Source: a virus
Taxonomy: Duplodnaviria; Heunggongvirae; Uroviricota; Caudoviricetes
Virus record (IMG/VR): IMGVR_UViG_2693429713_000009
Length of the DNA stretch: 64,000 bases
Direction: 5' to 3' (one strand)
This document shows positions 7,672 to 64,000 of the stretch, in pieces. The notes under the pieces are model-generated. The model worked only from the letters and a program-made list of their open reading frames with translations. It ran no database searches and was not told where the DNA came from. Each line of letters starts with the position of its first letter. Position 1 is the stretch's first letter. A program made the translations under genes and the position numbers.

Positions 7672-8670
7672 ATGCAATCACTGAATACTGTTACGGATCG
7701 CTTCTCCCTGGTAGAGAAAATCCGCAAACACACACCGCAGAACAACCGAAATTACGTCATTCAGTCGGTACGAGACACATTCAACTCGCCAGAAACAAAA
7801 GAGCGTATCGCGCTGGGTGAGATGTATGGTTATTACGGTCATGGTCGCCGGGCGATGCACTATAACAAAACGAAAAGCCTGAACTTGCCGGAAGTCTCTG
7901 TTGTGATGGTAGATGGGAAGCCTGTTGTATTGGAGAACGTGCCGTCAAACAGGACTATCGACATTTCGATTGACGACAACGGCATTGTTACGCATACGCA
8001 GGAAATACTGGATACAGACACCGGGCGTATTGTTCAGGGCATGATTAATTCTGGTGCTGGTGGTTGGTCGTGGGCTACATCTGGTCCAGATTCATCGGTA
8101 TCCTTGGTAAAGTCTTTCCACGGCTTTGATTACGTAACTGTGCCTAACTATATCAGCCTCGACAAGAAAAGCCTGATGCTTGAATCAGCAGAAGAGCGCG
8201 ATGCGGCTATTCATGCAGCACTTATCGAACAAGGTTTTACCGATAACGCAGCTACGGATCTGGTTCACCACTTTTCAGCAATGAAAAATCAGCAAGCCAT
8301 GCTCGAATCTGCACATCGTGAAGCCCTGGAATCAGAATTGATGCTCCTTGAAGTGGAAAACATACAGCTTCGAGATAAGCTGCGCGCTCAAACAGCGATG
8401 ATGGAAAGCCAAGGGGAAAATGCAAAGCAATGCCGCCGGATTTTGCGTGACGCTATCCAGGAAATGCCTGTTTTTATCAGCGCAGAACAGCGCCGGGCGC
8501 TCTGCCGTATGCAGTCTGAAGATGATGCCCGCATAGTGGCTGCGATGCTTGAATCTCTTGGGGCAAATGCTACTTATGGCTTACCGGTATCAGGCAAGAA
8601 AGAACCAGAGTTATCACCGAAGGAGAACAAAAACACCACCCCGTTACTCTTCGTTTCTAGAAGGGGGTGA
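7672..8670 (+). CDS. hypothetical protein, possible prohead protease/scaffold
   Basis: 332 aa, 13 nt after upstream gene; helical acidic C-terminal half. Confidence 0.3.
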   Translation: MQSLNTVTDRFSLVEKIRKHTPQNNRNYVIQSVRDTFNSPETKERIALGEMYGYYGHGRRAMHYNKTKSLNLPEVSVVMVDGKPVVLENVPSNRTIDISIDDNGIVTHTQEILDTDTGRIVQGMINSGAGGWSWATSGPDSSVSLVKSFHGFDYVTVPNYISLDKKSLMLESAEERDAAIHAALIEQGFTDNAATDLVHHFSAMKNQQAMLESAHREALESELMLLEVENIQLRDKLRAQTAMMESQGENAKQCRRILRDAIQEMPVFISAEQRRALCRMQSEDDARIVAAMLESLGANATYGLPVSGKKEPELSPKENKNTTPLLFVSRRG

Positions 8671-8697: not shown

Positions 8698-8785
8698 TAG
8701 TGTATTTATATACACTGTTGATCCTGGTGGATGGGATCGAGTAGGATCGCGGTCACTGCTCCGGTAGCGACTGCCAAAAAAGCAA

Positions 8786-8870: not shown

Positions 8871-9833
8871 GTGAGTATTTTAAATTCAGTTTCAGTAACT
8901 TTCAACACTTCTGAGTATAAAAACAACACTGAATACCACAAAAAAATCAAAGGTCATCAGTTGAGTTTTTTTGCTCGTCATAGCGGTCTTCTTTCCCCTT
9001 CACATAGCGCCATTATTGCCGAGTTCGCCAACCTGGCAGGGTCTACCGATGAATACATGATCCGTCGCTCATATGCTGATATGTCCGAGATTACAGGACG
9101 CAGTATTTCTACTGTGCGCCGGGCATTTGCTGAAGCGACGAAGTGCGGAATGCTTGTTAAGCAACATCAGGTAGCGAATAACAATGCCCAGGTGTGTAAC
9201 GTATATCGGTTTACGACACAATTTCTCCACTTCATTCATGTAGCAATGGAGATAGGGGGTAAGCAGGGCATCAAATTTGCCAACGCCACAAAACTGGTTA
9301 AGCAGTTGATTTCAAAGGTTCGTTATTTTTTTGAAACTGGGAACCCCCTGTTCAAATTGAACAAGTCCCCCCATGTTCAAATTGAACAGCCAATAGAAAA
9401 TAAGAGTCACTCTATAGCAAAAAGAAGAGAAAGATCATGCGCGGTTCAGCCAAAGGCTTCACCAGCAGATAGTTCTCAAGCGGATAATGGGGTACTGGAT
9501 AAAAAACCAGTAATCAGGGAAGAACATACCAACCACTGCCTGGCGGCGGCAAAAGCGAGAGCTGCAAAGCGTCGTTCAGACGAGGGGCACGCAAAACGGC
9601 AGGCTCTGTATCGTACCGCTGAAAAGCTGGCAAAAAAATTTGCATGGATACGTAGTGCCGCTACCGCAGTGAATAAGCCTAAACAATCCAGTGCCCTGGA
9701 TTTCTCAATGGATTATTCTGGCTCCCAGGGGTGTGCAACCATTGGTGAAGCCTTTGACCTGATGAAACAGCGTGGCTATCGGTCTGAATTTGACCGTGAG
9801 GATTGGTCAATCCCGGCGGGCTTTAGGGGATGA
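8871..9833 (+). CDS. RepL-like replication protein
   Basis: 320 aa with HTH-like ITGRSISTVRRAF; operator-controlled promoter; internal twin palindromes. Confidence 0.4.
   Translation: MSILNSVSVTFNTSEYKNNTEYHKKIKGHQLSFFARHSGLLSPSHSAIIAEFANLAGSTDEYMIRRSYADMSEITGRSISTVRRAFAEATKCGMLVKQHQVANNNAQVCNVYRFTTQFLHFIHVAMEIGGKQGIKFANATKLVKQLISKVRYFFETGNPLFKLNKSPHVQIEQPIENKSHSIAKRRERSCAVQPKASPADSSQADNGVLDKKPVIREEHTNHCLAAAKARAAKRRSDEGHAKRQALYRTAEKLAKKFAWIRSAATAVNKPKQSSALDFSMDYSGSQGCATIGEAFDLMKQRGYRSEFDREDWSIPAGFRG
9349..9388. repeat. two copies of 15-bp palindrome TGTTCAAATTGAACA inside RepL-like CDS
   Basis: Perfect dyads at about 9349-9363 and 9374-9388; candidate origin element. Confidence 0.5.
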
Positions 9834-25739: not shown

Positions 25740-26315
25740 ATGTTAATGGCGAACGATAACGCATATGCAGAAGAAGATCTCATTTTGAGTGACTTCATAG
25801 GGAAGCGGGAACGCTGGACCCAAAAGCGAGAGGAACTTTACGCCTCATTAGTTCGCAAAGGCGTCAATATCGAAACCGCACAGAGCGGCGATATGACAGT
25901 GGTAAGCGTTGGATTGCACGGTGTAAGCGTGTCAGCAATCAATCATGAGCCATACGTTGCGTTATCCGAGTCAATGGTAAGGTTAGTTAAGTTCCTGAAG
26001 TACACAGAAGCGAATAATGTAATCATTGGCAAAAAGAATATCCCTTTTTCCTCGGCTTTTTACTGGATGATGAAAGGGCTTGATGCCCGGCGGACATCAT
26101 GGCCTAAAGGGAGCTATATATCGATGTTCCGTGGCAGCATTGGCAGCAAAGAAAAGCTCTTCGAATTCTTGCCGGAAGAGGCATTCGATATTGTGGAAGG
26201 GTGCGATGTGATGGTGATGCCTCGCCTGGTAATGATGAATGGGGATTTACAGGCGCAGACAGACTGGTTTGCAACTGGTGTGGATATTATCGCGACTGAC
26301 TGGGAGGCTTTCTGA
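25740..26315 (+). CDS. hypothetical protein with DUF2829-like region
   Basis: 191 aa; SSAFYWMMKGLDARRTSWPKGSYISMF and C-terminal ATDWEAF resemble DUF2829. Confidence 0.4.
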   Translation: MLMANDNAYAEEDLILSDFIGKRERWTQKREELYASLVRKGVNIETAQSGDMTVVSVGLHGVSVSAINHEPYVALSESMVRLVKFLKYTEANNVIIGKKNIPFSSAFYWMMKGLDARRTSWPKGSYISMFRGSIGSKEKLFEFLPEEAFDIVEGCDVMVMPRLVMMNGDLQAQTDWFATGVDIIATDWEAF

Positions 26316-26815: not shown

Positions 26816-27208
26816 ATGGAACAAATCAGCAGCGCAGAAATTGCGGATATCATGATCAGGGCTGACTGCTATCTGACAGTCACTGAAATTACCACTCTCG
26901 CCAAAGAAAAATACCCTCATCTCCATGTTTCACGAGTAAGTGTAACTAACATCATTCGTCATTTTGTTCGTTCAAGCAGGGCAATCTGTGAGCTGGATGA
27001 TCGTGTGTATCCACGAAAATACTGGCTACATGGTCTGAACGGATATCAGTTCAAGGTGCGCGGGCGCACGCCTGAATACGGTAGCTTACTGGTTAAAAAC
27101 TGTAGCAGGAAATCAGTCGAACAGGCGCGAAAAGAGCAACGAGAGCTGGTGGACATGGCGAATAAGCTGTGGAATGCCGCCGTTAAAAAGCGTGGTGTTG
27201 CTTTATGA
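26816..27208 (+). CDS. possible late promoter activator (Lpa-like)
   Basis: 130 aa immediately upstream of pacA with operator-controlled promoter, as lpa in P1; assignment by position. Confidence 0.3.
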   Translation: MEQISSAEIADIMIRADCYLTVTEITTLAKEKYPHLHVSRVSVTNIIRHFVRSSRAICELDDRVYPRKYWLHGLNGYQFKVRGRTPEYGSLLVKNCSRKSVEQARKEQRELVDMANKLWNAAVKKRGVAL

Positions 27209-28569
27209 GTCTGGTTAATTGGGAGGAGCACCGCGCCCGCTTTATAGCGTTGCGTGAAGAAAAAGGGATCACTGTAAAGGAATACTGTGAGGAGCATGGC
27301 CTTAGCTTCAATACAGCCAGAAAGCATCTCAATATGAAAAAAAATGAGGTGCGGTCGCAGGTAAAGACAACAAAAAAAAGCACCAAATCACCTGAAAAAA
27401 AACGGGCGGGAAGAGCAACAAAAAAGCTGGAAGAGGGTGCAGAAAAAACAAAATTTACAGAAATTGACAATTCGCAGGGCGCAGGTTCTTTCCGAAGTAT
27501 GCCGAGAAAGAAAACTTCGGATCATGAAAATAATGCAAATAATAACAATGAGATAAAAGAATCTGTCAGGAGATCATTGCGCGAAAAAATGGCGAAAATG
27601 ATCCCCGAAGAAGATAAAAGCGCCCCAAAAATTGAGGGATCTTCAGCAATGATCCCTGGCGGTGCTGTGCAGCGTGCCACATTGCCCACTACGAATGTGG
27701 CTCGCGATATGATGAAGAACGGCGCAGAAGAACACCTGCGGTTAGCAATTCAAATGGCGCAAGAGCGCGCACTTCAGTATCAAAGCATTGTTGATCAGGA
27801 GGCCGAACGTCTACAGGCGGAAATAGACGCCTTGGGCGATAAAGAGCCAGAAGGAATGCACCCTGGGCAGCGCCTTCTCGGTCTAATCAGTGACGCGGCC
27901 TACTACATGAATGATTTTATCAGTAGGTTGGCAGCTATATATCAGTCCGAACAAAAGCTGCGACAGGGGGATGAAAAGCTTCGTCAGAGCGCTCGCCAGC
28001 AAGCATTCAAAGAGGCTGAGGCCAGAGAAAAACTCGAATTAGCACGCCTACAGGCCGAACAGCGTGGCAAAGAGATTGAATATCGCATTGGCGCTGACGC
28101 ACGCGCTGCCAGAGTTATCGCCGCCGCTATACGTATGCGTGAGCGCGAGGAACTGGATGATATCGGTGTTGCTGAATACATCGAGCGCCAGGGGGTCAGC
28201 GTCCCGGCTATCCTCGCGGCGCGCGCGGCGAAAGCTATCACTCTTCTCGAACCACCTGTTTCTGACGTCAATGATGTTGATGATGAACAGCTGGACAAAG
28301 AGGCAAGGGAGTTTGCAACGCTTCAGGCTAACCATCCGCAATGGCTGGCAGAGCGCCGGGCGGATGTGGCAACCATTGTTGAAGAATTGGGGTGCGGAGA
28401 TTACGACCGCAATGGCGAGCGTAAAGCTGGAGAATTCGAGGCCAACGACGAAGAGCTGGATATTGACCCTTCGGCAACGGCTGAAATTTACGGTGATTAT
28501 GATGCATCTGATGCAGGGTATGACGCCGGAGATGATGATATCGCGATAGAACCGCCGGAGGATGATTAA
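27205..28569 (+). CDS. pacA: terminase small subunit PacA-like
   Basis: 454 aa, coupled to terminase large subunit; contains internal GATC-rich pac-like cluster. Confidence 0.65.
   Translation: MSLVNWEEHRARFIALREEKGITVKEYCEEHGLSFNTARKHLNMKKNEVRSQVKTTKKSTKSPEKKRAGRATKKLEEGAEKTKFTEIDNSQGAGSFRSMPRKKTSDHENNANNNNEIKESVRRSLREKMAKMIPEEDKSAPKIEGSSAMIPGGAVQRATLPTTNVARDMMKNGAEEHLRLAIQMAQERALQYQSIVDQEAERLQAEIDALGDKEPEGMHPGQRLLGLISDAAYYMNDFISRLAAIYQSEQKLRQGDEKLRQSARQQAFKEAEAREKLELARLQAEQRGKEIEYRIGADARAARVIAAAIRMREREELDDIGVAEYIERQGVSVPAILAARAAKAITLLEPPVSDVNDVDDEQLDKEAREFATLQANHPQWLAERRADVATIVEELGCGDYDRNGERKAGEFEANDEELDIDPSATAEIYGDYDASDAGYDAGDDDIAIEPPEDD
27520..27654. promoter_or_regulatory. candidate pac site (GATC hexamer cluster)
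   Basis: Five GATC-containing hexamers (GGATCA, AGATCA, TGATCC, GGATCT, TGATCC) within about 135 bp inside pacA, as in the P1 pac site. Confidence 0.45.
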
Positions 28570-30077
28570 TGGCTGGCGGGCGCAAGATTAAATGCGTCAC
28601 CAGCGATCCACGCTGGCGCGATATGGTAATCAAATACCGCTACAACTTTACCCAGGCTGTTGTCGATATTTTTGGGATGTTCCCCTCCCACCAGCAGCAG
28701 CAGATCATTCAGTCAGTGCAGGAAACGGGGAGTAGGACGACCGTCACGTCCGGACACGGAACGGGGAAGTCGTCCCTTACCGCGATGTTGCTGTTGATTT
28801 TTATGATCCTGTTCCCCGATGCCCGTGTCATCATTGTTGCTAACAAGATAGGCCAGGTAAAAACAGGCGTATTCAAATACGTTAAACAGTATTGGGCGAA
28901 TGCAGTTAAGCGTCATGGGTGGTTGCAGACCTATTTTGTCCTCTCTGACACCATGTTTTATGAGCGCTCCCGTAAGGGGATTTGGGAAGTTCTCTGCAAA
29001 GGTTATCGACTCGGCAACGAAGAAGCGCTGGCGGGGGAACATGCGGCACATTTGCTTCTAATTCTGGATGAAGCATCTGGTATATCTGATAAGGCGATCG
29101 GCGTAATGACCGGTGCTCTTACTGAAGAAGATAACCGGATGTTGATGCTATCCCAGCCAACAAGGCCAAGTGGTTATTTCTACGATTCGCACCATTCTCA
29201 AGCAAAAACCCCAGACAACCCGAAAGGGATCTGGACAGCAATTGTTCTTAACTCGGAAGAATCACCGTTCGTCACACCACAATTCATCAAGCAGAAGCTT
29301 CTGGAATATGGCGGGCGCGATTCTATTGAGTACATGGTCAAGGTGCTTGGTCAGTTCCCACGAGAAATTAACGGCTATTTGCTTGGTCGTGATGAATGCG
29401 ATCGCGCAGCTCGCCGCAAGGTGTTGTTGGAGAAAAACTGGGGATGGGTGGCAACGGCTGACGTTGGTAATGGGCGAGATAAGTCGGTCCTCAACATCTG
29501 CAAGGTATCTGGTCACAGGGATAAGCGGCGCGTTGTTAACTTTAAGGTAATGGAGATGCCTGGCACTATGGACCCATTGGCCTTTGCTGACTTCATATAT
29601 AACGAATGTACGCCGGAAAAATACCCGAATATAACAATCGCGGTTGATGCCGATGGTTTTGGTTCTGATACGTGTGCGCAGTTGGTGCGTCGTGGTGCGA
29701 ACCCGGTACGTATTCGGTGGGGAAAACCCATGTTTGCGAACAAAGACAGGGAGCGATTTGTTAATCAGCGTGCCTACGCAAATATTATGGCGCGTGATGC
29801 CATAAAGTCAGGGCGTATGCGGATAGACAGTGACCCTAAAACGGCAGAGCAAGCGTCAAAAATCCCCTTTTTACTGAATGAGGAAGGGAAAATGGCGATG
29901 ATGCGCAAAGAGCACATGCGGCAAAAGCTAAACATCAAATCGCCTGACCGATGGGATACCTACTGCTTCACTATGCTGGTGGACTATGTGCCTGCTAATG
30001 AAGATATTGGTGCCGAAATGGCAACTTTCCGAGATCAGGTTCTGGCGGATATCGAAATGCCAGATCTGGATATATAA
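28569..30077 (+). CDS. pacB: terminase large subunit PacB-like
   Basis: 502 aa; Walker A SGHGTGKSS, Walker B LLLILDEASG. Confidence 0.85.
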   Translation: MAGGRKIKCVTSDPRWRDMVIKYRYNFTQAVVDIFGMFPSHQQQQIIQSVQETGSRTTVTSGHGTGKSSLTAMLLLIFMILFPDARVIIVANKIGQVKTGVFKYVKQYWANAVKRHGWLQTYFVLSDTMFYERSRKGIWEVLCKGYRLGNEEALAGEHAAHLLLILDEASGISDKAIGVMTGALTEEDNRMLMLSQPTRPSGYFYDSHHSQAKTPDNPKGIWTAIVLNSEESPFVTPQFIKQKLLEYGGRDSIEYMVKVLGQFPREINGYLLGRDECDRAARRKVLLEKNWGWVATADVGNGRDKSVLNICKVSGHRDKRRVVNFKVMEMPGTMDPLAFADFIYNECTPEKYPNITIAVDADGFGSDTCAQLVRRGANPVRIRWGKPMFANKDRERFVNQRAYANIMARDAIKSGRMRIDSDPKTAEQASKIPFLLNEEGKMAMMRKEHMRQKLNIKSPDRWDTYCFTMLVDYVPANEDIGAEMATFRDQVLADIEMPDLDI

Positions 30078-30078
30078 A

Positions 30079-30095
30079 GCCCCGCGATGCGGGGC
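30079..30095. terminator. hairpin terminator between convergent pacB and repressor genes
   Basis: GCCCCGC-GAT-GCGGGGC. Confidence 0.45.
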
Positions 30096-30104
30096 CAGTT
30101 GTGA

Positions 30105-31142
30105 TTACCAGAGCTTCGCGGCGTACTGCGTTTGGGGGAATGTGTATCCGTAACGTTCTTCGATTGCTTTGCCGTATTTTTTACGAGCTTCATTCAGTTT
30201 AATGCCGGTCAGGTCGTCTCCAGAGGCCATCATTACGTCTAACAATTCCAGATCCATTTTATCCAGCCTTGCCATTGCTTCACGTGATGTACGTATCTTA
30301 CGCTCAATGATATGGCGAATAGCCGGATCGGCATCCTCCAGCATCTTAGCGGATTTCTGCTTAAGGCTTTCATTGCGAATATCGATGTTCCTTAAGATGT
30401 ACGACTTCGCAACGTAGCTTGGCTGGTGTTTTTCCAGGTCACGAACACGATATAAGTTAAAATCGCCGAGAAGGCTGCAAGGTACCGATTCGACGCCAGA
30501 ATAAATTGTAATGCTCCGGCGTTCACCAACATTATTGACAACGGGGATCGTTGTCTTCGGTAGTCTTGCGAAAACCAATGCGCCATGTGCGCCAACTCTA
30601 AAGCGAGAAAGGGCATTGCTGCCTTCGATGTTTGTTGTCAGCACAACATCTGTATATGCCTCTTTACGCGCCCGGTAGATCTCGCCTTCAGGCTCAGCTT
30701 CAAAGAAGCGCTGTTCTTCTTCAAGAGCACCTACGATTTGAGAAAAAACCCTATTTTTCAGGCTTTTCTTTATGATTTTGTCGTATTTTTTGAGCAATTG
30801 TTCACGTGTAAATGTACGTGTTGTTGTAGCGCTTTGCACAACAACATGCGTGCTTTGATTGGTGTCCTCAATGATGAATGGGATCGGAGAATATACAGAC
30901 TCAACAATGTTCGACGCTTTGCCGTCGGCATCGCGACACATGTCAACGAAGGCTTTCCATTCAGCAAGACATTTTTCAGCTTCTTCTAATATGTTTTGGT
31001 CATGCGTTAATGCAACATGGCGGAATTCCTCGCCAGCATAACTGGTATCATGGAAAACAGAGTTTGCGACCACCAGCTCTTTCCACCGTTCAGCGGTTTG
31101 CAGGAACCGTTTGTACTCTTTCTCGATCGACTTCTTACTCAT
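30105..31142 (-). CDS. C1-like primary repressor (by position)
   Basis: 345 aa, convergent with pacB and divergent from lox-cre as c1 in P1; operator-like motif in its own promoter. Confidence 0.4.
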   Translation of the reverse strand: MSKKSIEKEYKRFLQTAERWKELVVANSVFHDTSYAGEEFRHVALTHDQNILEEAEKCLAEWKAFVDMCRDADGKASNIVESVYSPIPFIIEDTNQSTHVVVQSATTTRTFTREQLLKKYDKIIKKSLKNRVFSQIVGALEEEQRFFEAEPEGEIYRARKEAYTDVVLTTNIEGSNALSRFRVGAHGALVFARLPKTTIPVVNNVGERRSITIYSGVESVPCSLLGDFNLYRVRDLEKHQPSYVAKSYILRNIDIRNESLKQKSAKMLEDADPAIRHIIERKIRTSREAMARLDKMDLELLDVMMASGDDLTGIKLNEARKKYGKAIEERYGYTFPQTQYAAKLW

Positions 31143-31351: not shown

Positions 31352-31385
31352 ATAACTTTAAATAATTGGCATTATTTAAAGTTAG
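31352..31385. promoter_or_regulatory. lox-like recombination site
   Basis: ATAACTTTAAATA-ATTGGCAT-TATTTAAAGTTAG: 13-bp inverted arms (12/13) around 8-bp asymmetric spacer, arm ends ATAACTT as in loxP. Confidence 0.7.
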
Positions 31386-38957: not shown

Positions 38958-39693
38958 GTTTATCAGCCACCAGCGGCAATAAAGCCTTAGCCATTTCATG
39001 AACCAACATGGCATCAATAACGCCTAGCGTATGGCCTGGCTTAATCTTTAATGCGGCCTCAAGATAGCCTCTTTCCAGAGTGGTTTTTACGCTTTTCCTG
39101 GGCGCTTGTTGGGAACTATCCGGAAGAACCGGATGGTTCCCAGCCTCATAGGCTACCCGCAACCAGTGCATGAATGTTTCCGCAGACACACAGCCGCAGT
39201 CCACATCGATTTCCCCGCGTTGCTGCTCCAGCCATTGCTCAAAATCTAACTTGTAAGCCTTACTTTCAGGTTCATCACCATTGAACTCGACTTTCTGCGA
39301 CGCTATGAGAGCGGCTTCGTACTGTTCGCGAGTGACAACCGATGTAAACGCACTGCGATCAAGGTCACTGATATCGCAAATAATGCCATCAATGGAATAA
39401 TTCTTTGATGATTGGTAATTTTTATGGTGCGTACCAAAAAGAACCATAGCGCGACTACTACCTGGCATCGTAATGGATAGATGGCAAAAATCTTTTCCAT
39501 CAGGCCATCCACGCCCCTTAGATAATTCCTTCACTAACAAGTCAATCAGTGTCATAGCGTTACCATCCTTGCAAGGCGCTAAAGCTATTTTGGCAAGCTC
39601 CAATACTTCATCTGCTGCGTATCCAGCACTGTGACCATACATTTCGATGCTGGTGATAATCTCTGATATGCGTTTTTTAGTGATTCTTGTCAT
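38929..39693 (-). CDS. hypothetical protein
   Basis: About 254 aa. Confidence 0.4.
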   Translation of the reverse strand: MTRITKKRISEIITSIEMYGHSAGYAADEVLELAKIALAPCKDGNAMTLIDLLVKELSKGRGWPDGKDFCHLSITMPGSSRAMVLFGTHHKNYQSSKNYSIDGIICDISDLDRSAFTSVVTREQYEAALIASQKVEFNGDEPESKAYKLDFEQWLEQQRGEIDVDCGCVSAETFMHWLRVAYEAGNHPVLPDSSQQAPRKSVKTTLERGYLEAALKIKPGHTLGVIDAMLVHEMAKALLPLVADKHEAGHANES

Positions 39694-39899
39694 AGTTTTA
39701 TTTCCTTGCATGGTTCGCCTTTACGGCAAACAGCTACACGGTCATTTCTTACATTAACCACAGTCACCGTTCCGTCATCGCATTGAATAACGATGAAAGG
39801 GTGTTCATTCTCTTTTGTGCAATGTTGCTGTTCTCCAGCCATTGCAGCCGGAGGAGCAAATAGCGCCAGAACAAATGCCAGCCTTAAAAAATGCTTCAT
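39690..39899 (-). CDS. small exported protein
   Basis: 69 aa with signal peptide MKHFLRLAFVLALFAPPAAMA. Confidence 0.45.
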   Translation of the reverse strand: MKHFLRLAFVLALFAPPAAMAGEQQHCTKENEHPFIVIQCDDGTVTVVNVRNDRVAVCRKGEPCKEIKL

Positions 39900-39984
39900 T
39901 TGGCCTTATCCGTTATCAAAATTGGAATATCCGTTATCACGAGAGTGATATCCGTTATGAAGTGGGGAATAAGACCACTTATCA

Positions 39985-40158
39985 ATACCCTCCGCCTGAC
40001 TCAAAGTTGGCGATAAGCCAGGCTGCGAAAAGAGTAACCCCACTCCAAAAACCACACCCCACCGTACCCCATTTAACACCACCAGCTAATAAAACAAATA
40101 AACCGCAAAGGCATACAAACAAAAAAGTAATCCAAAATTTCTTTCTGTTTTTCATTAT
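39985..40158 (-). CDS. small membrane protein (not in ORF track)
   Basis: 57 aa MKNRKKFWITFLFVCLCGLFVLLAGGVKWG..., two hydrophobic segments, ATGA overlap with upstream gene. Confidence 0.4.
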
Positions 40159-40448
40159 GGTTGACTCCAGTTATCTTCAATAGCAATGCTCAATCTTTGT
40201 AACCATTCTGCTAATTTCAGCATTGCTTCTCTTTCGCTTAAACCACGCGGAAAATCATCAAGCGCTATTGTTGGCTTGAAGTTCCCAAAATTATCCATTT
40301 CAACGGTCAGATTTTGCTCCAGCACGGTATTTCTTACGCGACTATTGTGCCGAAGCAAATATACTGAACGTGATTTATTGGTTTTGTGGTCGAACGTATA
40401 TTCGGTAAGTATCATCTGACTTCCGCCATGATTATTACCGCGCCACAT
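40155..40448 (-). CDS. hypothetical protein
   Basis: 97 aa. Confidence 0.4.
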   Translation of the reverse strand: MWRGNNHGGSQMILTEYTFDHKTNKSRSVYLLRHNSRVRNTVLEQNLTVEMDNFGNFKPTIALDDFPRGLSEREAMLKLAEWLQRLSIAIEDNWSQP

Positions 40449-40471
40449 AATTACTCCGTGTTAATTGAAAT

Positions 40472-40774
40472 TTAGCTATTAATCTTCACTTTTATCGCGA
40501 ACACCTTTACCGGTTTATCACCGAAGTGTGGATGTGTGATTGTTTTTATTTCATATCCGTTATACGGGACGTCAATTCTGCGACTGAAGTCGTCGCGCTT
40601 CGGATATCCCTTTGTGATAATCAGGCGGTCATATTCCCGGAACATGATTCGCTTATTCCAGTAGTCATTACACAGGCGATACTCTTCCGTTTTATCTCCG
40701 CGAATCATGGCATCGAAGTATTCACCTTTGACGGCAAGTTGCAGGTTAGCCATTACCGCTCCTCCAGTCTCCAT
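40472..40774 (-). CDS. hypothetical protein
   Basis: About 95 aa; start probably internal Met. Confidence 0.4.
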   Translation of the reverse strand: METGGAVMANLQLAVKGEYFDAMIRGDKTEEYRLCNDYWNKRIMFREYDRLIITKGYPKRDDFSRRIDVPYNGYEIKTITHPHFGDKPVKVFAIKVKINS

Positions 40775-41013
40775 ACTGCCTGACCAATCCGGCTGGCATG
40801 TTTATCTTTAGATACTGTTCCGTCTTTAGCAATCTCCATAAGAATTTTGCGCAAATCTGCCGAACGCCATTCTTCATCAGGAAATTCCTTCTCCATTGCC
40901 AACCGCAGATTCCAGGTTGCTATCGTGAATGGATATTCCCCGCCGAGAGCTTTCTCTTGCAGGGCAGCACGGGAACGTATCACCTGCAATACCTTCTCTT
41001 TTACATCCATCAT
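40753..41013 (-). CDS. hypothetical protein
   Basis: 86 aa. Confidence 0.4.
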   Translation of the reverse strand: MMDVKEKVLQVIRSRAALQEKALGGEYPFTIATWNLRLAMEKEFPDEEWRSADLRKILMEIAKDGTVSKDKHASRIGQAVWRLEER

Positions 41014-41477
41014 TTTGTCTCCTGCGGCGGTTCTGGTAGCGGCATCCAGTGAGTTGCTTGCTCAATACCATTACCCGGCTTAATCGTTGCATCTCCGCGC
41101 CGAAAGGTGCTTCCGGTATAGCGTGCGGAGCATATTAGCGGTTCAACCAGAGAGCTATCGAAATTCACCGAAATAAGCACGTTCTGGCCCTTTTCAGGCA
41201 TTCGCTCACTACAGCTTATCCAACCATCCGGAGTTACCGAAACTGGCGACGCGGCATATAGTGGTTTAGGCGATATCTCCGCGCGTTTTGCGTATGCTTC
41301 AACTGTGTCAGGGTTAAACAGGATTATGTTTTCACCGCATTCCCACGCTATCGGTTCTGCTTCCAGCGAGGCTAACGCTATTTCATAAGCACGGCGCTCA
41401 ATATTGTCTCTCACGTCCAGGCTACCTATGCGCTCTTTGATTTCTTTAATCAGTTCTTTGTCGGTGAAAGTTGTCAT
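41010..41477 (-). CDS. hypothetical protein
   Basis: 155 aa. Confidence 0.4.
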   Translation of the reverse strand: MTTFTDKELIKEIKERIGSLDVRDNIERRAYEIALASLEAEPIAWECGENIILFNPDTVEAYAKRAEISPKPLYAASPVSVTPDGWISCSERMPEKGQNVLISVNFDSSLVEPLICSARYTGSTFRRGDATIKPGNGIEQATHWMPLPEPPQETK

Positions 41478-41480
41478 GTG

Positions 41481-41789
41481 TTAGTCCTCATCCACTTCAA
41501 CGCCATCTTTCAGCGTGATGCCGTGCCAATCATCAGCCCAACTGGTTAGCCCTGGCGCATCAATGCTAGGCATATAAACGCTTGCAGTGTGGTAGCCCTT
41601 ATCGTTATCAATGCTGGCAACGTGCTCGCCGTTGTATGCGCTCAGCGTGTCCAGGACGCTATAAAACTTTCCTCCGGCTGCCCTGAAATCCTTTACAGCC
41701 TTCACAAGGCGATTCCACGCTTTTTCCTGTTCTGGCGTCAGGTCGATTAATTCCTGCAAAGTTGCCATATCACTCTCCTTTGATGTCAA
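41481..41789 (-). CDS. hypothetical protein
   Basis: 102 aa. Confidence 0.4.
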   Translation of the reverse strand: MTSKESDMATLQELIDLTPEQEKAWNRLVKAVKDFRAAGGKFYSVLDTLSAYNGEHVASIDNDKGYHTASVYMPSIDAPGLTSWADDWHGITLKDGVEVDED

Positions 41790-42219
41790 TGTTTACAGCT
41801 TGGCAAGCCTCTTTGAGCACCCAGTCAACAGCGTCTTTCCATGCTCCGGTTTCGACTGGCGGATTTTCACGCTTAACCTGTTCATAGAAGCGCACTGCTT
41901 TAACCAGTCCTTCTGATGTCACCGGGACTGGCGGGGCAGTGAATAAGGCCTGAATCTCATAGCTCGGCCTGTCGTTGCAATCCTCTTTTGTCGGTACATA
42001 TTTCCAGTCACCAACCCACGAATCCCCCTGAGAGTCCGTAACACCTTTTTTCACGTAGCGATATCGCCACGCGACTGGCTCTGCTTCCAACGATGCCAGT
42101 GCGATACGAAACACATTGGCAAGCAGACTGCTTGAAGATTGGTTATCGTGCGCCGGGTCGCTCAGGAAACCAGTGATGAATGATTTAATTTCCGCGTTTT
42201 CTCTGGTAATAGTGGTCAT
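41770..42219 (-). CDS. hypothetical protein
   Basis: 149 aa. Confidence 0.4.
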   Translation of the reverse strand: MTTITRENAEIKSFITGFLSDPAHDNQSSSSLLANVFRIALASLEAEPVAWRYRYVKKGVTDSQGDSWVGDWKYVPTKEDCNDRPSYEIQALFTAPPVPVTSEGLVKAVRFYEQVKRENPPVETGAWKDAVDWVLKEACQAVNIDIKGE

Positions 42220-42476
42220 TTATTAATCCTCAAAACTTTATGCCCGGGCGCAAAAGCACGTGTTTTGTCTTTGCTTATTCGCCAGCCATCCTTGCGCGCC
42301 TCTTTTGCACAGCCAGCCCATGACGTACCGATATACTCACCGAAGTCTGGCGTTTGATATTTACCATTTGTACACTGGCGACAATCACAGTAGAGATGCA
42401 TGGTGTAACTTGCAGCGATAGCCACATCACTCTCCTTTAGTACGCAAGTGGTTTTTCCAGCGGTTTTGCGCCGCAC
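42216..42476 (-). CDS. hypothetical Cys-rich protein
   Basis: 86 aa with CDCRQC...C pattern. Confidence 0.35.
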   Translation of the reverse strand: MRRKTAGKTTCVLKESDVAIAASYTMHLYCDCRQCTNGKYQTPDFGEYIGTSWAGCAKEARKDGWRISKDKTRAFAPGHKVLRINK

Positions 42477-42619
42477 TGGGCTTTTTGCAACAACTGTGAC
42501 CCATCACCCCGCAACACCCCGCCAACCTCACTCGTCTGTTACTAATCCTCAACCAGCGCCAGATCCCAACACCGTTTCTGCGAGCTAACAGAATTTTTGC
42601 TTTACGGTTTTTCATCGCT

Positions 42620-60005: not shown

Positions 60006-60911
60006 ATGAGATCAGTCGCTTTCAAAAATATCTTCATCTATCGTCTTTCACGCGAAGTTAGCTGGGATACTGCAGAAGTAAATGCAGCCCTTAGCAAGTT
60101 TGTGTTTACCCCATGCGGTTCTCAGGATATGGCTAAAGCTGGTTGGACCCCCGTTCTTGGCGACAACCTCACCCATGAATACCAGGGTTTTCTTCTGATA
60201 CAGCATAAACGAGAGGAAAAAATCCTACCCTCTCAAGTGCTCAAAGAAGAGTTACAGAAAAAAATCCTGACACTTGAAGAAGAGCAAGACAGAAAGCTGA
60301 AGAAGACTGAAAAAGATTCGCTGAAGGATGAAGTGCTTCACTCTCTGCTTCCTCGTGCTTTCACGAGAAAATCAGTCGCTAAAATCCTGATAGACCGAAG
60401 CAATCATCTGGTTTTTGTCGAGGCCAGCAGTGCTAAAAAAGCAGAGGATCAGCTGGCTTTGTTACGGAAATCGCTTGGCAGCTTGCCCGTTGTCCCCTTC
60501 TCTCCGAAAGACCCATTAGAACTGACCATCACTGGCTGGATTAAAAATGGCTTCCCGAACGGTTTCCGTGCCGGTGAGGAAGCGACCTTAAAAGCATTGC
60601 TTGATGATGGCGGCGCGGTCCGCTGCAAAAAAGTGGACCTGCTATCCGACGAGATCATGAGTCATATAGAAGCTGGTAAGGTTGCAACCACAGTTGCGGT
60701 TAACTGGCAAGACCGTGCATTTTTCAGACTGAATGACGATATGAGTATCAAGGCTTTGTCGTTCAGCGACGAATTGTACGACCAGAACGACGATATTGAT
60801 CGAGAGGATGTTGCGCAACGATTTGACGCTGACTTTATCCTGTTTACTGCTGAATTATCCGCGATGTTCACTTCGCTGGTGGAGGCCGTTGGTGGTGAAG
60901 CAGAACGTTAA
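60006..60911 (+). CDS. rdgC: recombination-associated protein RdgC
   Basis: 301 aa; [29 protein letters not shown]-terminal [17 protein letters not shown] match RdgC. Confidence 0.8.
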
Positions 60912-60924
60912 CAATAGACCTCTG

Positions 60925-61575
60925 ATGGTGAGTCTTTGTGATTTCACGGGGAAAATGGTCGCCCCCTGGCTGGAGCATGGTATAGATGCTGTTATCGTCG
61001 ATCCACAACACGCAGAGACCAGAGATGAGCTGATGCAATCAGGCGCAGTTCTGACACGTATCAGTGCGATTATCGATAGTGATGAAGTTTATGCTTTTCT
61101 CCGAAATAATTTACAACGTATTGTGTTTTTAGCTGGTTTTCCGCCGTGCACGGACCTTGCTGTTTCCGGTGCGCGCTGGTTTGCGCATAAGGCTGACAAA
61201 GATCCGTTTTTCCAGTTCAAAGCGATGCAGGTCGTCTGGCAGTGTTACGATATTGCAAAGATGATTGGTTGCCCGTACATGATTGAAAACCCGGTCAGCC
61301 AAATATCGACATTCTGGCGTAAACCTGATCACATCTTCCATCCTTACCACTTCACTGCATATTGCAAGGAAGACAATTACACCAAAAAAACATGCCTCTG
61401 GAGCGGGCAAGGCTTTGTCATGCCTGATGCCCTAATGGACGAATCATTAGGCAAGCCAGATAACAGAATCCATACCGCGCCACCTGGACCTGAAAGGGCT
61501 AATTTTCGAAGTGCTACTCCGCATGGATTCGCAAAGGCAGTTTTCGAAGCGAATAAGGGGGTGCTCTATGAGTAA
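60925..61575 (+). CDS. short DNA methyltransferase-like protein (C5-cytosine MTase motifs)
   Basis: About 216 aa; GFPPCTDLAVSG (PC motif) and MIENPV (ENV motif). Confidence 0.4.
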   Translation: MVSLCDFTGKMVAPWLEHGIDAVIVDPQHAETRDELMQSGAVLTRISAIIDSDEVYAFLRNNLQRIVFLAGFPPCTDLAVSGARWFAHKADKDPFFQFKAMQVVWQCYDIAKMIGCPYMIENPVSQISTFWRKPDHIFHPYHFTAYCKEDNYTKKTCLWSGQGFVMPDALMDESLGKPDNRIHTAPPGPERANFRSATPHGFAKAVFEANKGVLYE

Positions 61576-62473
61576 ATCTATAGCAAGCATAGCCATAGAA
61601 AAACAGGATACGATGGCTGAAATTAGCTATATGCGCACCATTCGGACTCAGGATGAATATGAGCGCCCGATCTTCAAATGGGTAGGCGGTAAATTCTCAG
61701 AGTTGCCTACAGTGCTTGAGCATCTACCACACGGCAAGCGGTTAATAGAACCATTCGTTGGTGGCGGTTCCGTATTTACAAATGCAGGATTTCGCCACAA
61801 CCTGCTTAATGATATTAACGGTGACCTGATTAACTTCTATCAGACATTGCAGCGAGAAGGACATTCGCTCGTCACGCTGTCATATAGTTTTTTCCAAAAT
61901 TACAACAACGCTGACGCTTACCTAGAAGTGCGTGAGGCATTTAACAGAGGAAAGTATGACCAGCTACATCATGCTGCCGCCTTTTTGTACCTTAATCGGC
62001 ACTGTTTTAATGGCGTAACGCGGTACAACCAAAATGGCGAGTTCAACGTGGGGTATGGCAAATACAAAGCGCCCTACTTCCCACATGCAGAGATGGAGGC
62101 ATTTTTGGCTGATGACGTACTCAAAAACACGTCCTTTGTATCAGGTGACTTTGCTGGCGTCATCGAGGCGGCTGGTGAAGGCGATGTGATTTTTTGCGAT
62201 CCGCCGTATGAACCGCTGCCGGATACAGAAGGGTTTACCAGTTATTCAGGAAATAGCTTCCGTTTCGACGAACAGAAACGGCTGGTATCTCTATTGGTGG
62301 AAGCCCACCAGCGCGGCGCTAAGGTAGTGATAACAAATAGTGGTGCGCCAAACATCCGTGAACTATATGAAGGAAACGGGTTTAAAGTACATCATATGGC
62401 AGCCAGACGGTCGGTGTCCTGCAAGGCGTCAACACGTGTAGTTGCTAACGATATAATTGCAATAATGAAGTAA
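61568..62473 (+). CDS. dam: DNA adenine methyltransferase (Dam family)
   Basis: About 301 aa; FKWVGGK, PFVGGGS and DPPY motifs. Confidence 0.8.
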   Translation: MSKSIASIAIEKQDTMAEISYMRTIRTQDEYERPIFKWVGGKFSELPTVLEHLPHGKRLIEPFVGGGSVFTNAGFRHNLLNDINGDLINFYQTLQREGHSLVTLSYSFFQNYNNADAYLEVREAFNRGKYDQLHHAAAFLYLNRHCFNGVTRYNQNGEFNVGYGKYKAPYFPHAEMEAFLADDVLKNTSFVSGDFAGVIEAAGEGDVIFCDPPYEPLPDTEGFTSYSGNSFRFDEQKRLVSLLVEAHQRGAKVVITNSGAPNIRELYEGNGFKVHHMAARRSVSCKASTRVVANDIIAIMK

Positions 62474-62521: not shown

Positions 62522-64000
62522 TTAACCTAACTTCGCCCAGGTATCACGCAGCCCAACGGTGCGGTTAAATACCGGTTTTTCCGCCGTAGAATGGCGGCTG
62601 TCGAGGCAGAAATAACCTTCACGCTCAAACTGGAATGCTTTACCCGCTACCGCTTCTTTCAGCGACGGTTCAGCAAAACCCTGTTTGATCACCAGCGATT
62701 CCGGGTTAATCACCGACAGGAAATCATCCGCAGCACCTGGGTTCGGCACGCTGAACAGACGATCGTACAGGCGGATTTCAACCGGCAGCGCATGTGCCGC
62801 GCTCACCCAGTGAATAACGCCTTTCACTTTACGACCATCTGCCGGATCTTTGCTTAAGGTGTCGGCGTCATAAGTACAGAAGATGGTGGTGATATTGCCT
62901 TCGGCATCTTTCTCCACGCGTTCAGCCTTAATGACGTAAGCATTACGCAGACGCACTTCTTTACCCAGCACCAGACGTTTGTACTGCTTGTTAGCTTCTT
63001 CGCGGAAATCGGCGCGGTCGATCCAAATCTCACCGCTAAACGGCACCTGACGGCTACCCATTTCCGGTTTGTTTGGATGGTTCGGCATGGTGACCATTTC
63101 GCCTTCGCCCTGGTAGTTTTCGATAACCAGTTTCACCGGATCGATAACCGCCATTGCGCGCGGCGCATTTTCGTTGAGATCTTCACGGATGCAGGATTCC
63201 AGCGACGCCATCTCAATGGTGTTGTCCTGCTTGGTCACGCCGATGCGTTTGCAGAACTCACGAATAGAAGCCGCAGTGTAACCACGACGACGCAGACCGG
63301 AAATGGTCGGCATACGCGGGTCATCCCAGCCTTCAACGTGCTTGTCGGTCACCAGCAGGTTCAGCTTACGCTTGGACATCACAGTGTATTCCAGATTCAG
63401 GCGCGAGAATTCGTACTGGCGCGGGTGAACAGGAATGGTGATGTTGTCCAGTACCCAGTCATACAGACGACGGTTGTCCTGGAACTCAAGCGTACACAGA
63501 GAGTGCGTAATACCTTCCAGCGCATCGCTGATGCAGTGGGTGAAGTCGTACATCGGGTAGATGCACCACTTATTGCCAGTCTGGTGGTGTTCAGCAAACT
63601 TAATGCGGTACAGCACCGGGTCGCGCATCACGATAAACGGCGAAACCATGTCGATTTTCGCACGCAGGCAGGCTTTACCTTCTTCAAAACCACCGGCACG
63701 CATTTTTTCGAACAGCGCCAGGTTCTCTTCAACGCTGCGGTCGCGGTACGGGCTGTTTTTACCCGGCTGCGTCAGGGTGCCGCGGTATTCGCGGATCTGT
63801 TCCGGCGTCAGTTCGTCAACATACGCCAGGCCTTTGTTGATCAGTTCAACAGCATAGGCATGGAGTTTGTCAAAATAATCGGAGGAGTAACGGATGTTGC
63901 CAGACCAGTGAAAACCTAACCATTCAACGTCGTTTTTAATCGACTCGACGTACTCGATATCTTCTTTTACCGGGTTAGTGTCGTCGAAACGCAGGTTGCA
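62522..64000 (-). CDS. glnS: glutaminyl-tRNA synthetase, 3' portion (gene continues beyond window)
   Basis: C-terminal 490+ aa ending [29 protein letters not shown], very close to enterobacterial GlnRS; host-like codon usage. Confidence 0.9.

What the first reader, a model, noticed from the sequence alone, without database searches (positions are those of the whole stretch)
27520..27654. GATC-hexamer cluster inside pacA as candidate Dam-controlled pac site
Five GATC-containing hexamers within about 135 bp resemble the organisation of the P1 pac site, where methylation state controls cleavage. The element also encodes its own Dam.
Basis: partly seen in the sequence, partly recalled or inferred. 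Interest (0 to 1): 0.45.

Follow-up and report, generated by a model that had tools for sequence, protein, structure and literature searches.

The report
Likely packaging site of phage-plasmid D6
Five conserved GATC motifs inside the small-terminase gene of a D6-like phage-plasmid are most likely where its DNA-packaging enzyme binds, a rearranged version of the classic methylation-gated pac site of phage P1; this is expected rather than surprising, and it has not been tested experimentally.

Summary
Five GATC lie at 27520, 27572, 27600, 27638 and 27651, inside pacA (27205-28569) of an element 99.4% identical to Escherichia phage D6.

Density alone is weak evidence: 12-19% of simulated 64-kb windows hold an equally tight cluster. 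Three other results make it real:
- It lies in the part of pacA that holds P1 pac. A fixed 400-nt segment holds such a cluster with P about 0.0012.
- In D6-clade lineages only 59-63% identical across this stretch, all 20 GATC core bases are invariant (permutation P = 2.5e-5). The motifs use three reading frames and two orientations, and they survive amino-acid changes.
- All seven PacA clades surveyed carry a GATC array in the same part of pacA.

The element encodes a Dam-family methylase (61511-62473).

The organisation is not P1's. P1 has seven TGATCA/G hexamers in 4+3 arms around an IHF site and the cut. D6 has five copies of a non-palindromic motif, GGGATCAT / ATGATCCC: one lone copy and two inverted-repeat pairs. 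It has no left arm and no IHF-like site nearby.

Best reading: a PacA recognition array of a variant P1-type pac site, probably methylation-sensing. The cut position and Dam dependence are inferred. I found no published or annotated D6 pac site, but the D6 genome paper could not be read. Interest is modest.

The parts
27205..28569 (+). pacA (small terminase / pacase A subunit, 454 aa). The N-terminal about 45 aa form an HTH-like domain; residues about 50-170 are a hypervariable linker that carries the GATC array.
   Evidence: ORF. 99.4% nt identity to D6 pacA. 21% identity to P1 PacA, pairwise E = 6e-10. Weak HTH_23 hit at residues 7-42. Linker variability seen in A2.
27518..27525 (+). Motif 1, CGGATCAT (GATC 27520-27523): a lone half-site.
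   Evidence: CGGATCA is invariant in the four compared D6-clade lineages. Absent in the sister clade L009, which has TGATTC.
27570..27577 (+). Motif 2, GAGATCAT (GATC 27572-27575): left arm of inverted repeat A.
   Evidence: (I4). It reads GGGATCAT in L006-L008. The encoded residue changes R/G while GATC is kept.
27598..27605 (-). Motif 3, ATGATCCC, the reverse complement of GGGATCAT (GATC 27600-27603): right arm of inverted repeat A.
   Evidence: AAATGATCCC is the longest invariant run in the region and is also kept in L009.
27636..27643 (+). Motif 4, GGGATCTT (GATC 27638-27641): left arm of inverted repeat B.
   Evidence: It reads GGGATCAT in L006 and GAGATCAT in L007/L008. The encoded residue changes G/R while GATC is kept.
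27649..27656 (-). Motif 5, ATGATCCC (GATC 27651-27654): right arm of inverted repeat B.
   Evidence: AATGATCCC is invariant in the D6 clade and in L009. It is a direct repeat of motif 3, 51 bp away (D7).
27452..27470 (.). Conserved DNA island (AATTTACAGAAATTGACAA) about 50 bp upstream of motif 1. A candidate cleavage or bending region; this is inference only.
   Evidence: The invariant runs AATTTACA and TGACAA lie in an otherwise diverged stretch and are also conserved in L009. In L009 the island sits at the midpoint of the 199-bp hexamer-free spacer, where P1 is cut in its own spacer.
28569..30077 (+). pacB (large terminase / pacase B subunit, 502 aa): the presumed nuclease and ATPase that cuts at pac.
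   Evidence: 56% identity to P1 PacB over 488 aa. Weak Terminase_6N hit. Annotated pacB in D6.
26816..27208 (+). lpa (late promoter activator). Its stop codon overlaps the pacA start.
   Evidence: PF25716 BPP1_LPA, E = 5e-57. D6 annotation.
61511..62473 (+). Dam-family N6-adenine DNA methyltransferase encoded by the element. The start codon is uncertain.
   Evidence: PF02086, E = 2.3e-56. TIGR00571 'dam', 249 bits against a cut-off of 115. DPPY motif. D6 annotation 'site-specific DNA-adenine methylase'.
31353..31384 (+). rox recombination site (the D6 counterpart of P1 lox), 3.7 kb downstream of the cluster.
   Evidence: Identical to the annotated D6 rox in AY753669 4909-4940.

Best explanation
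The five GATC motifs are the PacA recognition array of the D6-type pac site, a rearranged relative of the phage P1 pac site.

Proposed mechanism (the DNA element, its conservation and the genes are shown; the steps are inferred):
1. Late in lytic growth PacA binds through its N-terminal helix-turn-helix domain to the 8-10-bp motif GGGATCAT / ATGATCCC. The motif is present as one lone copy and two inverted-repeat pairs.
2. The bound PacA recruits PacB.
3. PacB cuts the concatemer nearby. The most likely cut position is within about 100 bp upstream of or inside the array, around 27450-27575.
4. Headful packaging then proceeds rightward through pacB and c1 towards rox. This places rox in the terminal redundancy of the first headful, as lox is placed in P1.
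5. Every motif is centred on a Dam site, and GATC is the only feature kept in all PacA clades even though the flanking bases and the PacA recognition helix differ. Cleavage is therefore probably gated by N6-adenine methylation, as in P1: fully methylated sites are cut and freshly replicated hemimethylated sites are spared. The host Dam and the element's own Dam-family enzyme would supply the methylation.
For: Shown:
- Position in pacA matches P1 pac.
- PacA and PacB homology and P1-like synteny, including rox at 3.7 kb.
- All 20 GATC core columns are invariant across D6-clade lineages 59-63% identical in this stretch, permutation P = 2.5e-5. All 7 third-codon positions inside the cores are invariant against 39% background. 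The longest invariant runs in the region are the motifs themselves.
- The motifs occupy three reading frames and two orientations, and encoded residues change (G/R) while GATC is retained. The constraint is therefore on DNA, not on protein.
- All seven PacA clades (P1, Pantoea, Serratia, Citrobacter, Leclercia, Enterobacter, D6) have 3-9 GATC in pacA nt 120-520, against about 1.4 expected.
- A Dam-family gene is on the element.
- P(cluster in a fixed 400-nt segment) = 0.0012.
- No promoter-like site lies in the cluster.

From the literature: P1 pac is 161 bp inside pacA, has seven TGATCA/G repeats containing Dam sites, and its processing is regulated by adenine methylation (PMC10028697, citing Sternberg & Coulby 1987 and 1988 and Skorupski 1994).
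Against: - No experimental end-mapping for D6 was available to me, and neither D6 GenBank record annotates a pac site.
- The architecture departs from P1: five motifs rather than seven, a different hexamer, no bipartite arms and no IHF consensus nearby.
- Every other clade, including the sister clade L009/L051, has a left arm that the D6 clade lacks. The array may therefore be only half of a site whose other half I could not recognise.
- Natural variants have lost one GATC each (L023 and L049, both GATC to GACC), so single motifs are dispensable or those elements are impaired.
- Conservation of the longer motif AATGATCCC fits plain sequence recognition as well as methyl sensing.
- The cluster is not significant by density alone in a window-wide scan.
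Confidence: 0.6

Rival explanations
1. It is the D6 pac recognition array, but methylation plays no regulatory part. GATC is simply the core of the sequence that PacA reads.
For: The conserved unit is longer than GATC: AAATGATCCC and AATGATCCC are invariant 9-10-mers. It forms inverted-repeat pairs typical of sites for dimeric HTH proteins. No experiment on D6 methylation dependence is known to me.
Against: GATC is the one element shared by all seven PacA clades. The flanks differ (TGATCA/G versus TGATCC/GGATCA), and PacA is only 21-34% identical between D6 and the clades outside the D6/Enterobacter lineage. A pure protein-DNA co-evolution model would allow drift away from GATC in some clade. 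P1, the only tested member, is methylation-dependent (PMC10028697). The element keeps its own Dam-family gene.
Confidence: 0.2
2. It is a conserved GATC-based DNA element with a function other than packaging initiation. Examples: SeqA/Dam-dependent timing of pacA-pacB expression, or an operator for another dimeric DNA-binding protein. The real pac site would lie elsewhere.
For: The conservation test shows selection on the DNA but does not say for what. The inverted-repeat pairs look operator-like. The D6 clade lacks the bipartite layout of all other clades. A second, unexplained GATC triple exists at 8720-8748.
Against: No sigma-70-like promoter lies in or next to the cluster. The array sits where the experimentally defined P1 pac sits, in the homologous gene, and all clades have arrays there. 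No other comparable GATC cluster exists in the 64-kb window. The only other close inverted GATC-motif pairs, at 21080 and 30032, are isolated.
Confidence: 0.12
3. It is a chance cluster or a by-product of coding for the PacA linker peptide.
For: 12-19% of simulated 64-kb windows contain an equally tight 5-GATC cluster. The extended motif RGATCAT is not enriched window-wide (19 observed, 18.5 expected). Motifs 3 and 5 both encode Met-Ile-Pro.
Against: Permutation P = 2.5e-5 for invariance of all 20 core bases in a region with 46% invariant columns. All 7 third-codon positions in the cores are invariant. The motifs use three reading frames and two orientations, and residues change while GATC persists. 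The same feature recurs in every clade.
Confidence: 0.03

Closest known systems
Bacteriophage P1 pac site (Sternberg & Coulby 1987, 1988; Skorupski et al. 1992, 1994; annotated in AF234172)
   Same: - It lies inside the 5' third of pacA, in the variable linker after the N-terminal HTH.
- It is built from short repeats centred on the Dam site GATC.
- It is served by homologous PacA and PacB, with the same lpa-pacA-pacB-c1-lox/rox gene order.
- The recombination site lies about 4 kb downstream.
- The element encodes its own Dam-family methylase.
   Different: - P1 has seven TGATCA/G hexamers, mostly self-palindromic, in a 4+3 bipartite layout with a 90-bp spacer. The spacer carries an IHF site and the staggered cuts.
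- D6 has five copies of a non-palindromic motif (TGATCC / GGATCA, extended to GGGATCAT): one lone copy plus two inverted-repeat pairs.
- The largest internal gap is 52 bp, there is no left arm, and no IHF core with one mismatch or fewer lies within 27300-27700.
- PacA is only 21% identical.
- P1's cleavage and methylation dependence are experimental; D6's are inferred.
GATC arrays in pacA of other P1-related phage-plasmids: Pantoea, Serratia, Citrobacter and Leclercia plasmids, and Enterobacter hormaechei p60214CZ_1 (L009)
   Same: All carry GATC arrays at pacA nt about 150-480. The Enterobacter clade (PacA 56% identical to D6) shares the GGGATCAT / ATGATCCC motif, the inverted pairs and the upstream conserved island.
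   Different: All of these are bipartite. The left arm has 2-7 hexamers, often at a strict 12-bp period, followed by an 83-199-bp start-to-start gap without hexamers and a right arm. The D6 clade has only the right-hand array, plus a new motif at nt 316. None of these sites has been tested experimentally as far as I could find.
pac sites inside small-terminase genes of other headful phages (P22, SPP1, Sf6); from general knowledge
   Same: The recognition site is embedded in the small-terminase coding sequence, and packaging is headful from a preferred start.
   Different: Those sites are not built on Dam sites and are not known to be methylation-gated. Their small terminases are unrelated in sequence: there are no PDB relatives of D6 PacA.

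Membership tests
P1-type pac site | Located within the pacA (small terminase) coding sequence, next to pacB | tested here: met
   The cluster is at nt 316-450 of pacA (27205-28569), and pacB follows at 28569-30077. P1 hexamers are at pacA nt 195-376.
P1-type pac site | Seven hexanucleotide repeats TGATCA/G | tested here: not met
   There are five motifs: GGATCA, AGATCA, TGATCC, GGATCT and TGATCC. The clade consensus is TGATCC/GGATCA, and none is TGATCA or TGATCG within the cluster.
P1-type pac site | Bipartite 4+3 arrangement of the repeats around a central spacer of about 90 bp | tested here: not met
   Start-to-start spacings are 52, 28, 38 and 13 bp. No left arm lies at nt 150-260, where all other clades have one.
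P1-type pac site | Each repeat contains a Dam methylation site (GATC) | tested here: met
   All five motifs contain GATC, and all 20 core bases are invariant across the compared D6-clade lineages.
P1-type pac site | IHF binding site between the repeat arms | tested here: not met
   No WATCAANNNNTTR match with one mismatch or fewer lies in 27300-27700. The only nearby match (27778-27790, perfect) is 124 bp downstream and is not conserved in L006-L008. This was a consensus scan only, so a weak or atypical site cannot be excluded.
P1-type pac site | Cleavage by PacA and PacB at staggered positions in the centre of the site | not testable with these tools
   This needs virion end mapping or an in vitro pacase assay. 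There are only indirect hints: the conserved island at 27452-27470 and one assembly break at 27524-27533.
P1-type pac site | Cleavage depends on adenine methylation of the repeats | not testable with these tools
   Inferred from the universal retention of GATC across PacA clades and the element's Dam-family gene. There are no experimental data.
P1-type pac site | Cognate PacA and PacB terminase homologues | tested here: met
   PacB is 56% identical to P1 PacB. PacA is 21% identical, pairwise E = 6e-10, and collinear over the full length.
Dam family DNA adenine methyltransferase (the element's enzyme) | Match to the D12-class / Dam family profile above the curated cut-off, with a DPPY catalytic motif | tested here: met
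   PF02086 at 191.8 bits (cut-off 22). TIGR00571 at 249 bits (cut-off 114.85). DPPY motif. The score is below the equivalog cut-off for E. coli Dam (240 against 441), so GATC specificity is inferred, not shown.

The most novel reading that the evidence does not exclude
The D6 clade may have turned the ancestral two-armed, P1-type pac site into a one-armed site. In this reading PacA reads inverted-repeat pairs of a non-palindromic GATC-centred 9-10-mer on the packaged side only, and the cut falls outside the array at the conserved island about 50-70 bp upstream (27452-27470). Together with the retention of GATC in all seven PacA clades, this would mean two things. Methyl-adenine sensing would be an ancestral and obligatory property of this whole terminase family. 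The second arm and IHF-assisted bending, thought to be essential in P1, would be dispensable.
Probability: 0.3. Interest if true: 0.5.

Novelty: new variant of a known kind. Interest (0 to 1): 0.33.

Why it matters
P1 pac is the only well-studied case in which DNA methylation state gates the start of phage genome packaging, and it underlies P1 transduction and phagemid tools.

D6-like phage-plasmids are common in E. coli and Salmonella from food animals and humans: 142 plasmid records carry this PacA. They are likely generalized transducers.

A defined D6 pac site would allow three things:
- D6-based phagemids and packaging vectors that are orthogonal to P1.
- Prediction of where chromosomal pseudo-pac sites lie.
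- A natural experiment on which features of the P1 site (arm number, hexamer palindromy, IHF site) are really required.

The family-wide survey also gives a simple rule for annotating pac sites in P1-related plasmid prophages. None of this overturns current understanding.

Tried and rejected
- Window-wide density statistics do not make the cluster significant on their own, so I did not rest the case on them.
- The D6 genome paper (Gilcrease & Casjens 2018, PMC5800970) and the P1 genome paper (PMC523184) are not held. I could not check whether a D6 pac was already mapped. Full-text searches found no paper describing one.
- tblastn of D6 PacA against the phage collection found only D6.
- No PDB relative of PacA was found.
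- An IHF consensus scan found nothing convincing near the cluster. The perfect site at 27778-27790 is not conserved.
- A promoter scan found no sigma-70-like site in the cluster, so the internal-promoter idea was dropped.
- The single-strand fold has z = -3.1, but this only reflects the inverted motif pairs. I rejected it as evidence for an RNA or ssDNA structure.
- Shared k-mers between the P1 spacer and the D6-clade region: many chance 7-8-mers occur. The match of ACTGACAA (L006-L008) to the reverse complement of the P1 cut-site TTGTCAGT is suggestive only, and the window itself reads ATTGACAA.
- Contig ends as a proxy for physical DNA ends: only one assembly (IMG 2537562191) breaks inside the cluster, and 29 other IMG/VR contigs run through it. 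It is an anecdote.
- The GTDB genome scan added only 7 loci.
- The GATC at pacA nt 63 (GGGATCAC) as a distant left arm: it lies in the conserved Gly-Ile-Thr codons of the HTH, so protein constraint explains it. It is neither supported nor excluded.

Full report
**What the window is.** Window 27000-30100 is 99.4% identical to Escherichia phage D6, a P1-related phage-plasmid. The D6 records annotate lpa, pacA, pacB and c1 here, with rox and dre beyond.

In window coordinates the genes are:
- lpa, 26816-27208
- pacA, 27205-28569 (454 aa)
- pacB, 28569-30077
- c1, 30105-31142 on the minus strand
- rox, 31353-31384, identical to the D6 sequence

PacB is 56% identical to P1 PacB. PacA is only 21% identical to P1 PacA (pairwise E = 6e-10) but is collinear with it over its full length. 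Neither D6 GenBank record carries a pac feature.

**The observation.** GATC occurs at 27520, 27572, 27600, 27638 and 27651, which is pacA nt 316, 368, 396, 434 and 447. The D6 reference has the same five. The eight differences between the window and D6 pacA all avoid them.

This is the tightest five-GATC cluster in the window, at 135 bp against 270 bp for the next independent one. GATC is not enriched overall (227 observed, 249 expected). In Markov simulations 12-19% of 64-kb windows contain an equally tight cluster, so density alone is unconvincing. For a fixed 400-nt segment chosen in advance, such as the P1-homologous part of pacA, the probability is about 0.0012.

**Comparison with P1.** In AF234172 the P1 hexamers lie at pacA nt 195, 202, 214 and 229 (all TGATCA) and at 325, 337, 348 and 376 (TGATCG, TGATCA, TGATCA, TGATCG). 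The first seven are the canonical 4+3 set; the TGATCG at nt 376 is an eighth GATC just outside it. An annotated IHF site sits at nt 256-268, and the primary cuts at about nt 276-285 in the middle of the spacer.

The literature describes a 161-bp site with seven TGATCA/G repeats containing Dam sites (HEX4 and HEX3), an IHF site and a central cut. Hemimethylated pac is proposed to be bound but not cut until it is fully methylated (PMC10028697). PhageTerm recovers the same termini from virion reads (PMC5557969).

The D6 cluster is therefore in the right gene and the right third of it. Its motifs and their layout are different.

**Conservation within the D6 clade.** I fetched pacA from plasmids whose PacA is 96, 94, 74, 73, 68 and 56% identical to the window's and aligned the first 600 nt (A1). 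The five GATC stand out as islands in a strongly diverged, Lys/Asn-rich linker region.

I then compared four lineages: the window, L006, L007 and L008. L007 and L008 are 91% identical to each other in nt 140-480; all other pairs are 59-63% identical. Results:
- 46% of columns in the region are invariant, yet all 20 GATC core columns are invariant. Random placement of five 4-mers gives P = 2.5e-5.
- All 7 third-codon positions inside the cores are invariant, against 39% for the region.
- The longest invariant runs are AAATGATCCC, AATGATCCC, CGGATCA and GATCATT.

The motifs sit in three reading frames and two orientations. The encoded residues change while GATC is kept, for example Arg-Arg-Ser-Leu against Arg-Gly-Ser-Phe at motif 2, and Gly against Arg at motif 4. 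The constraint is therefore on the DNA, not on the protein.

In 25 distinct D6-clade sequences the five positions are retained, with two exceptions. L023 and L049 each lost one site by GATC to GACC. In L023 that change is the only difference from the window in 600 nt.

**Anatomy.** The common unit is GGGATCAT, equivalent to ATGATCCC on the other strand. As a hexamer it is TGATCC/GGATCA, which is not a palindrome.
- Orientations are + + - + -.
- Motifs 2 and 3 form one inverted-repeat pair (27569-27606). Motifs 4 and 5 form a second (27636-27656).
- In L006 these pairs have perfect 10-bp and 9-bp arms; the second reads GGGATCATT-GCA-AATGATCCC.
- Motif 1 is a lone half-site.
- In the window two motifs have drifted at flanking bases (AGATCA, GGATCT), while the GATC cores are intact.

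**Family-wide survey.** PacA relatives came from plasmids, GTDB genomes and IMG/VR, giving 63 distinct 5' sequences. They fall into seven clades, and every clade has 3-9 GATC in pacA nt 120-520, against about 1.4 expected from flanking density.

| Clade | Left arm (nt) | Right arm (nt) |
|---|---|---|
| P1 | 195-229 | 325-376 |
| Pantoea | 154-237, strict 12-bp period | 363, 379 |
| Serratia | 199-255 | 338-375 |
| Citrobacter | 175, 187 | 327, 354 |
| Leclercia | 175-192 | 318 |
| Enterobacter (L009/L051) | 157-181 | 380-471 |
| D6 | none | 316-447 |

All clades but D6 are bipartite, with an 83-199-bp start-to-start gap without hexamers. The Enterobacter clade is the sister of D6 and uses the same GGGATCAT motif and inverted pairs. 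It still has a three-copy left arm inside a 12-nt insertion relative to D6. The simplest history is that the D6 clade lost the left arm and gained motif 1.

The flanking base differs between clades: T/A in P1-like clades, G/C on one side in the D6 and Enterobacter clades. The putative recognition helix differs in parallel: NTARKHL in D6 and Enterobacter, against NTARRE/Y/Q-L elsewhere. That is one evolutionary event, so it is weak co-variation.

What never changes across clades is GATC. That is the argument for an external, invariant reader or writer, namely Dam methylation, being part of the mechanism.

**The Dam gene.** Window 61511-62473 (+) matches PF02086 (E = 2.3e-56) and TIGR00571 'dam' (249 bits, cut-off 115), and has a DPPY motif. 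D6 annotates it as a site-specific DNA-adenine methylase, next to a putative cytosine methylase and glnS. GATC specificity is inferred from family membership only.

**Where the cut might be.** This part is inference.
- A second conserved island (AATTTACA...TGACAA, 27452-27470) lies about 50 bp upstream of motif 1 and is also conserved in L009.
- In L009 the island sits at the midpoint of the spacer between the arms, which is where P1 is cut in its own spacer.
- In L006-L008 the island reads ACTGACAA, the reverse complement of TTGTCAGT at the P1 cut. The window reads ATTGACAA, and chance 7-8-mer matches between these regions are common.
- One IMG isolate assembly breaks at 27524-27533, just 3' of motif 1. 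The 29 other IMG/VR contigs run through.
- No IHF core with one mismatch or fewer lies in 27300-27700. The perfect core at 27778-27790 is not conserved.

**Rivals.**
- A coding by-product or chance is disfavoured by the conservation test.
- An internal promoter is not supported.
- A different GATC-dependent function, such as SeqA-timed expression or an operator, cannot be excluded. It is less parsimonious, given the homologous position of the experimentally defined P1 site and the family-wide pattern.
- A pac site that is not methylation-gated remains a serious alternative. The conserved unit is longer than GATC, and no D6 experiment exists.

**Verdict.**
This is very probably a functional DNA element, and most likely the PacA-binding array of the D6 pac site.
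- It does not have the P1 organisation, so I class it as a variant of the P1-type pac site rather than a member in the strict sense.
- Cleavage position and Dam control are inferred.
- I could not read the D6 genome paper, so prior description cannot be ruled out. GenBank annotation and the searchable literature contain none.
- Interest is modest. It is an expected feature of a P1 relative, with a somewhat unexpected one-armed, inverted-repeat architecture that could be tested directly by virion end sequencing.

Noticed in passing
window 27452-27470: A conserved DNA island (AATTTACAGAAATTGACAA) lies in the hypervariable pacA linker and is also kept in the Enterobacter sister clade. In L006-L008 it reads ACTGACAA, the reverse complement of TTGTCAGT at the P1 pac cut. 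It is a possible cut or bending site, but the k-mer match is weak evidence.
   Followed up: partly
L054 (end) and L043 (start); window 27524-27533: Two contigs of one IMG isolate assembly (2537562191) end and start here with a 10-bp overlap, immediately 3' of the first GATC. The 29 other IMG/VR contigs span the region. This could be a physical DNA end or an assembly accident.
   Followed up: partly
window 27778-27797: A perfect IHF core consensus, TATCAAAGCATTG (one of 8 perfect matches in 64 kb), is followed 2 bp later by TGATCA, 124 bp downstream of the cluster. Neither is conserved in the L006-L008 lineages.
   Followed up: partly
L023 nt 2870 and L049 nt 2898 (pacA nt 370 and 398): Natural D6-like variants have each lost one of the five Dam sites by GATC to GACC. 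In L023 this is the only difference from the window in 600 nt.
   Followed up: yes
L013, L017-L019, L062-L079 (Pantoea clade), pacA nt 154-237: Six or seven TGATCA hexamers occur at a strict 12-bp period, encoding repeated x-Asp-His-x tetrapeptides in PacA. This is a much more regular left arm than in P1.
   Followed up: partly
L015 about 1000-1260 (plasmid assigned to Acinetobacter venetianus): The pacA reading frame is broken by a stop and frameshift just before the TGATCA array. This is a pseudogene or a sequencing error. The element otherwise looks like the Pantoea type.
   Followed up: no
window 8720-8748: Three GATC occur within 29 bp (TGATCC, GGATCG, GGATCG) in an intergenic gap, between an ORF with no Pfam hit (7672-8670) and one with a weak HTH_36 hit (8871-9833). 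This may be an origin or a regulatory site.
   Followed up: partly
window 39361-42561: A 3.2-kb stretch has no GATC at all, where the mean spacing is 282 bp. Its GC content (41-50%) is unremarkable, and it holds several short minus-strand ORFs.
   Followed up: no
window 62522-63703 (-): A glutamine-tRNA ligase homologue (TIGR00440, 765 bits) whose ORF covers only model positions 135-524. It is also annotated as glnS in D6.
   Followed up: no
window 60796-61575 (+): The ORF just upstream of dam, overlapping it, has a GFPPC motif. D6 annotates it as a putative DNA-cytosine methylase, but it has no Pfam or NCBIfam hit. In P1 the methylase Dmt is a single large protein (from memory, not checked here).
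   Followed up: no
window 25740-26315 (+): An ORF with a Thoeris anti-defence Tad2-like domain (PF11195, E = 1e-9) lies two genes upstream of lpa. RefSeq names its homologues in related plasmids 'MW1434 family type I TA system toxin'.
   Followed up: no
window 27205-27208: The lpa stop codon overlaps the pacA start (ATGA). In P1 an 85-bp gap holds the late promoter LPpac. D6 pacA may therefore be co-transcribed and translationally coupled with lpa.
   Followed up: no
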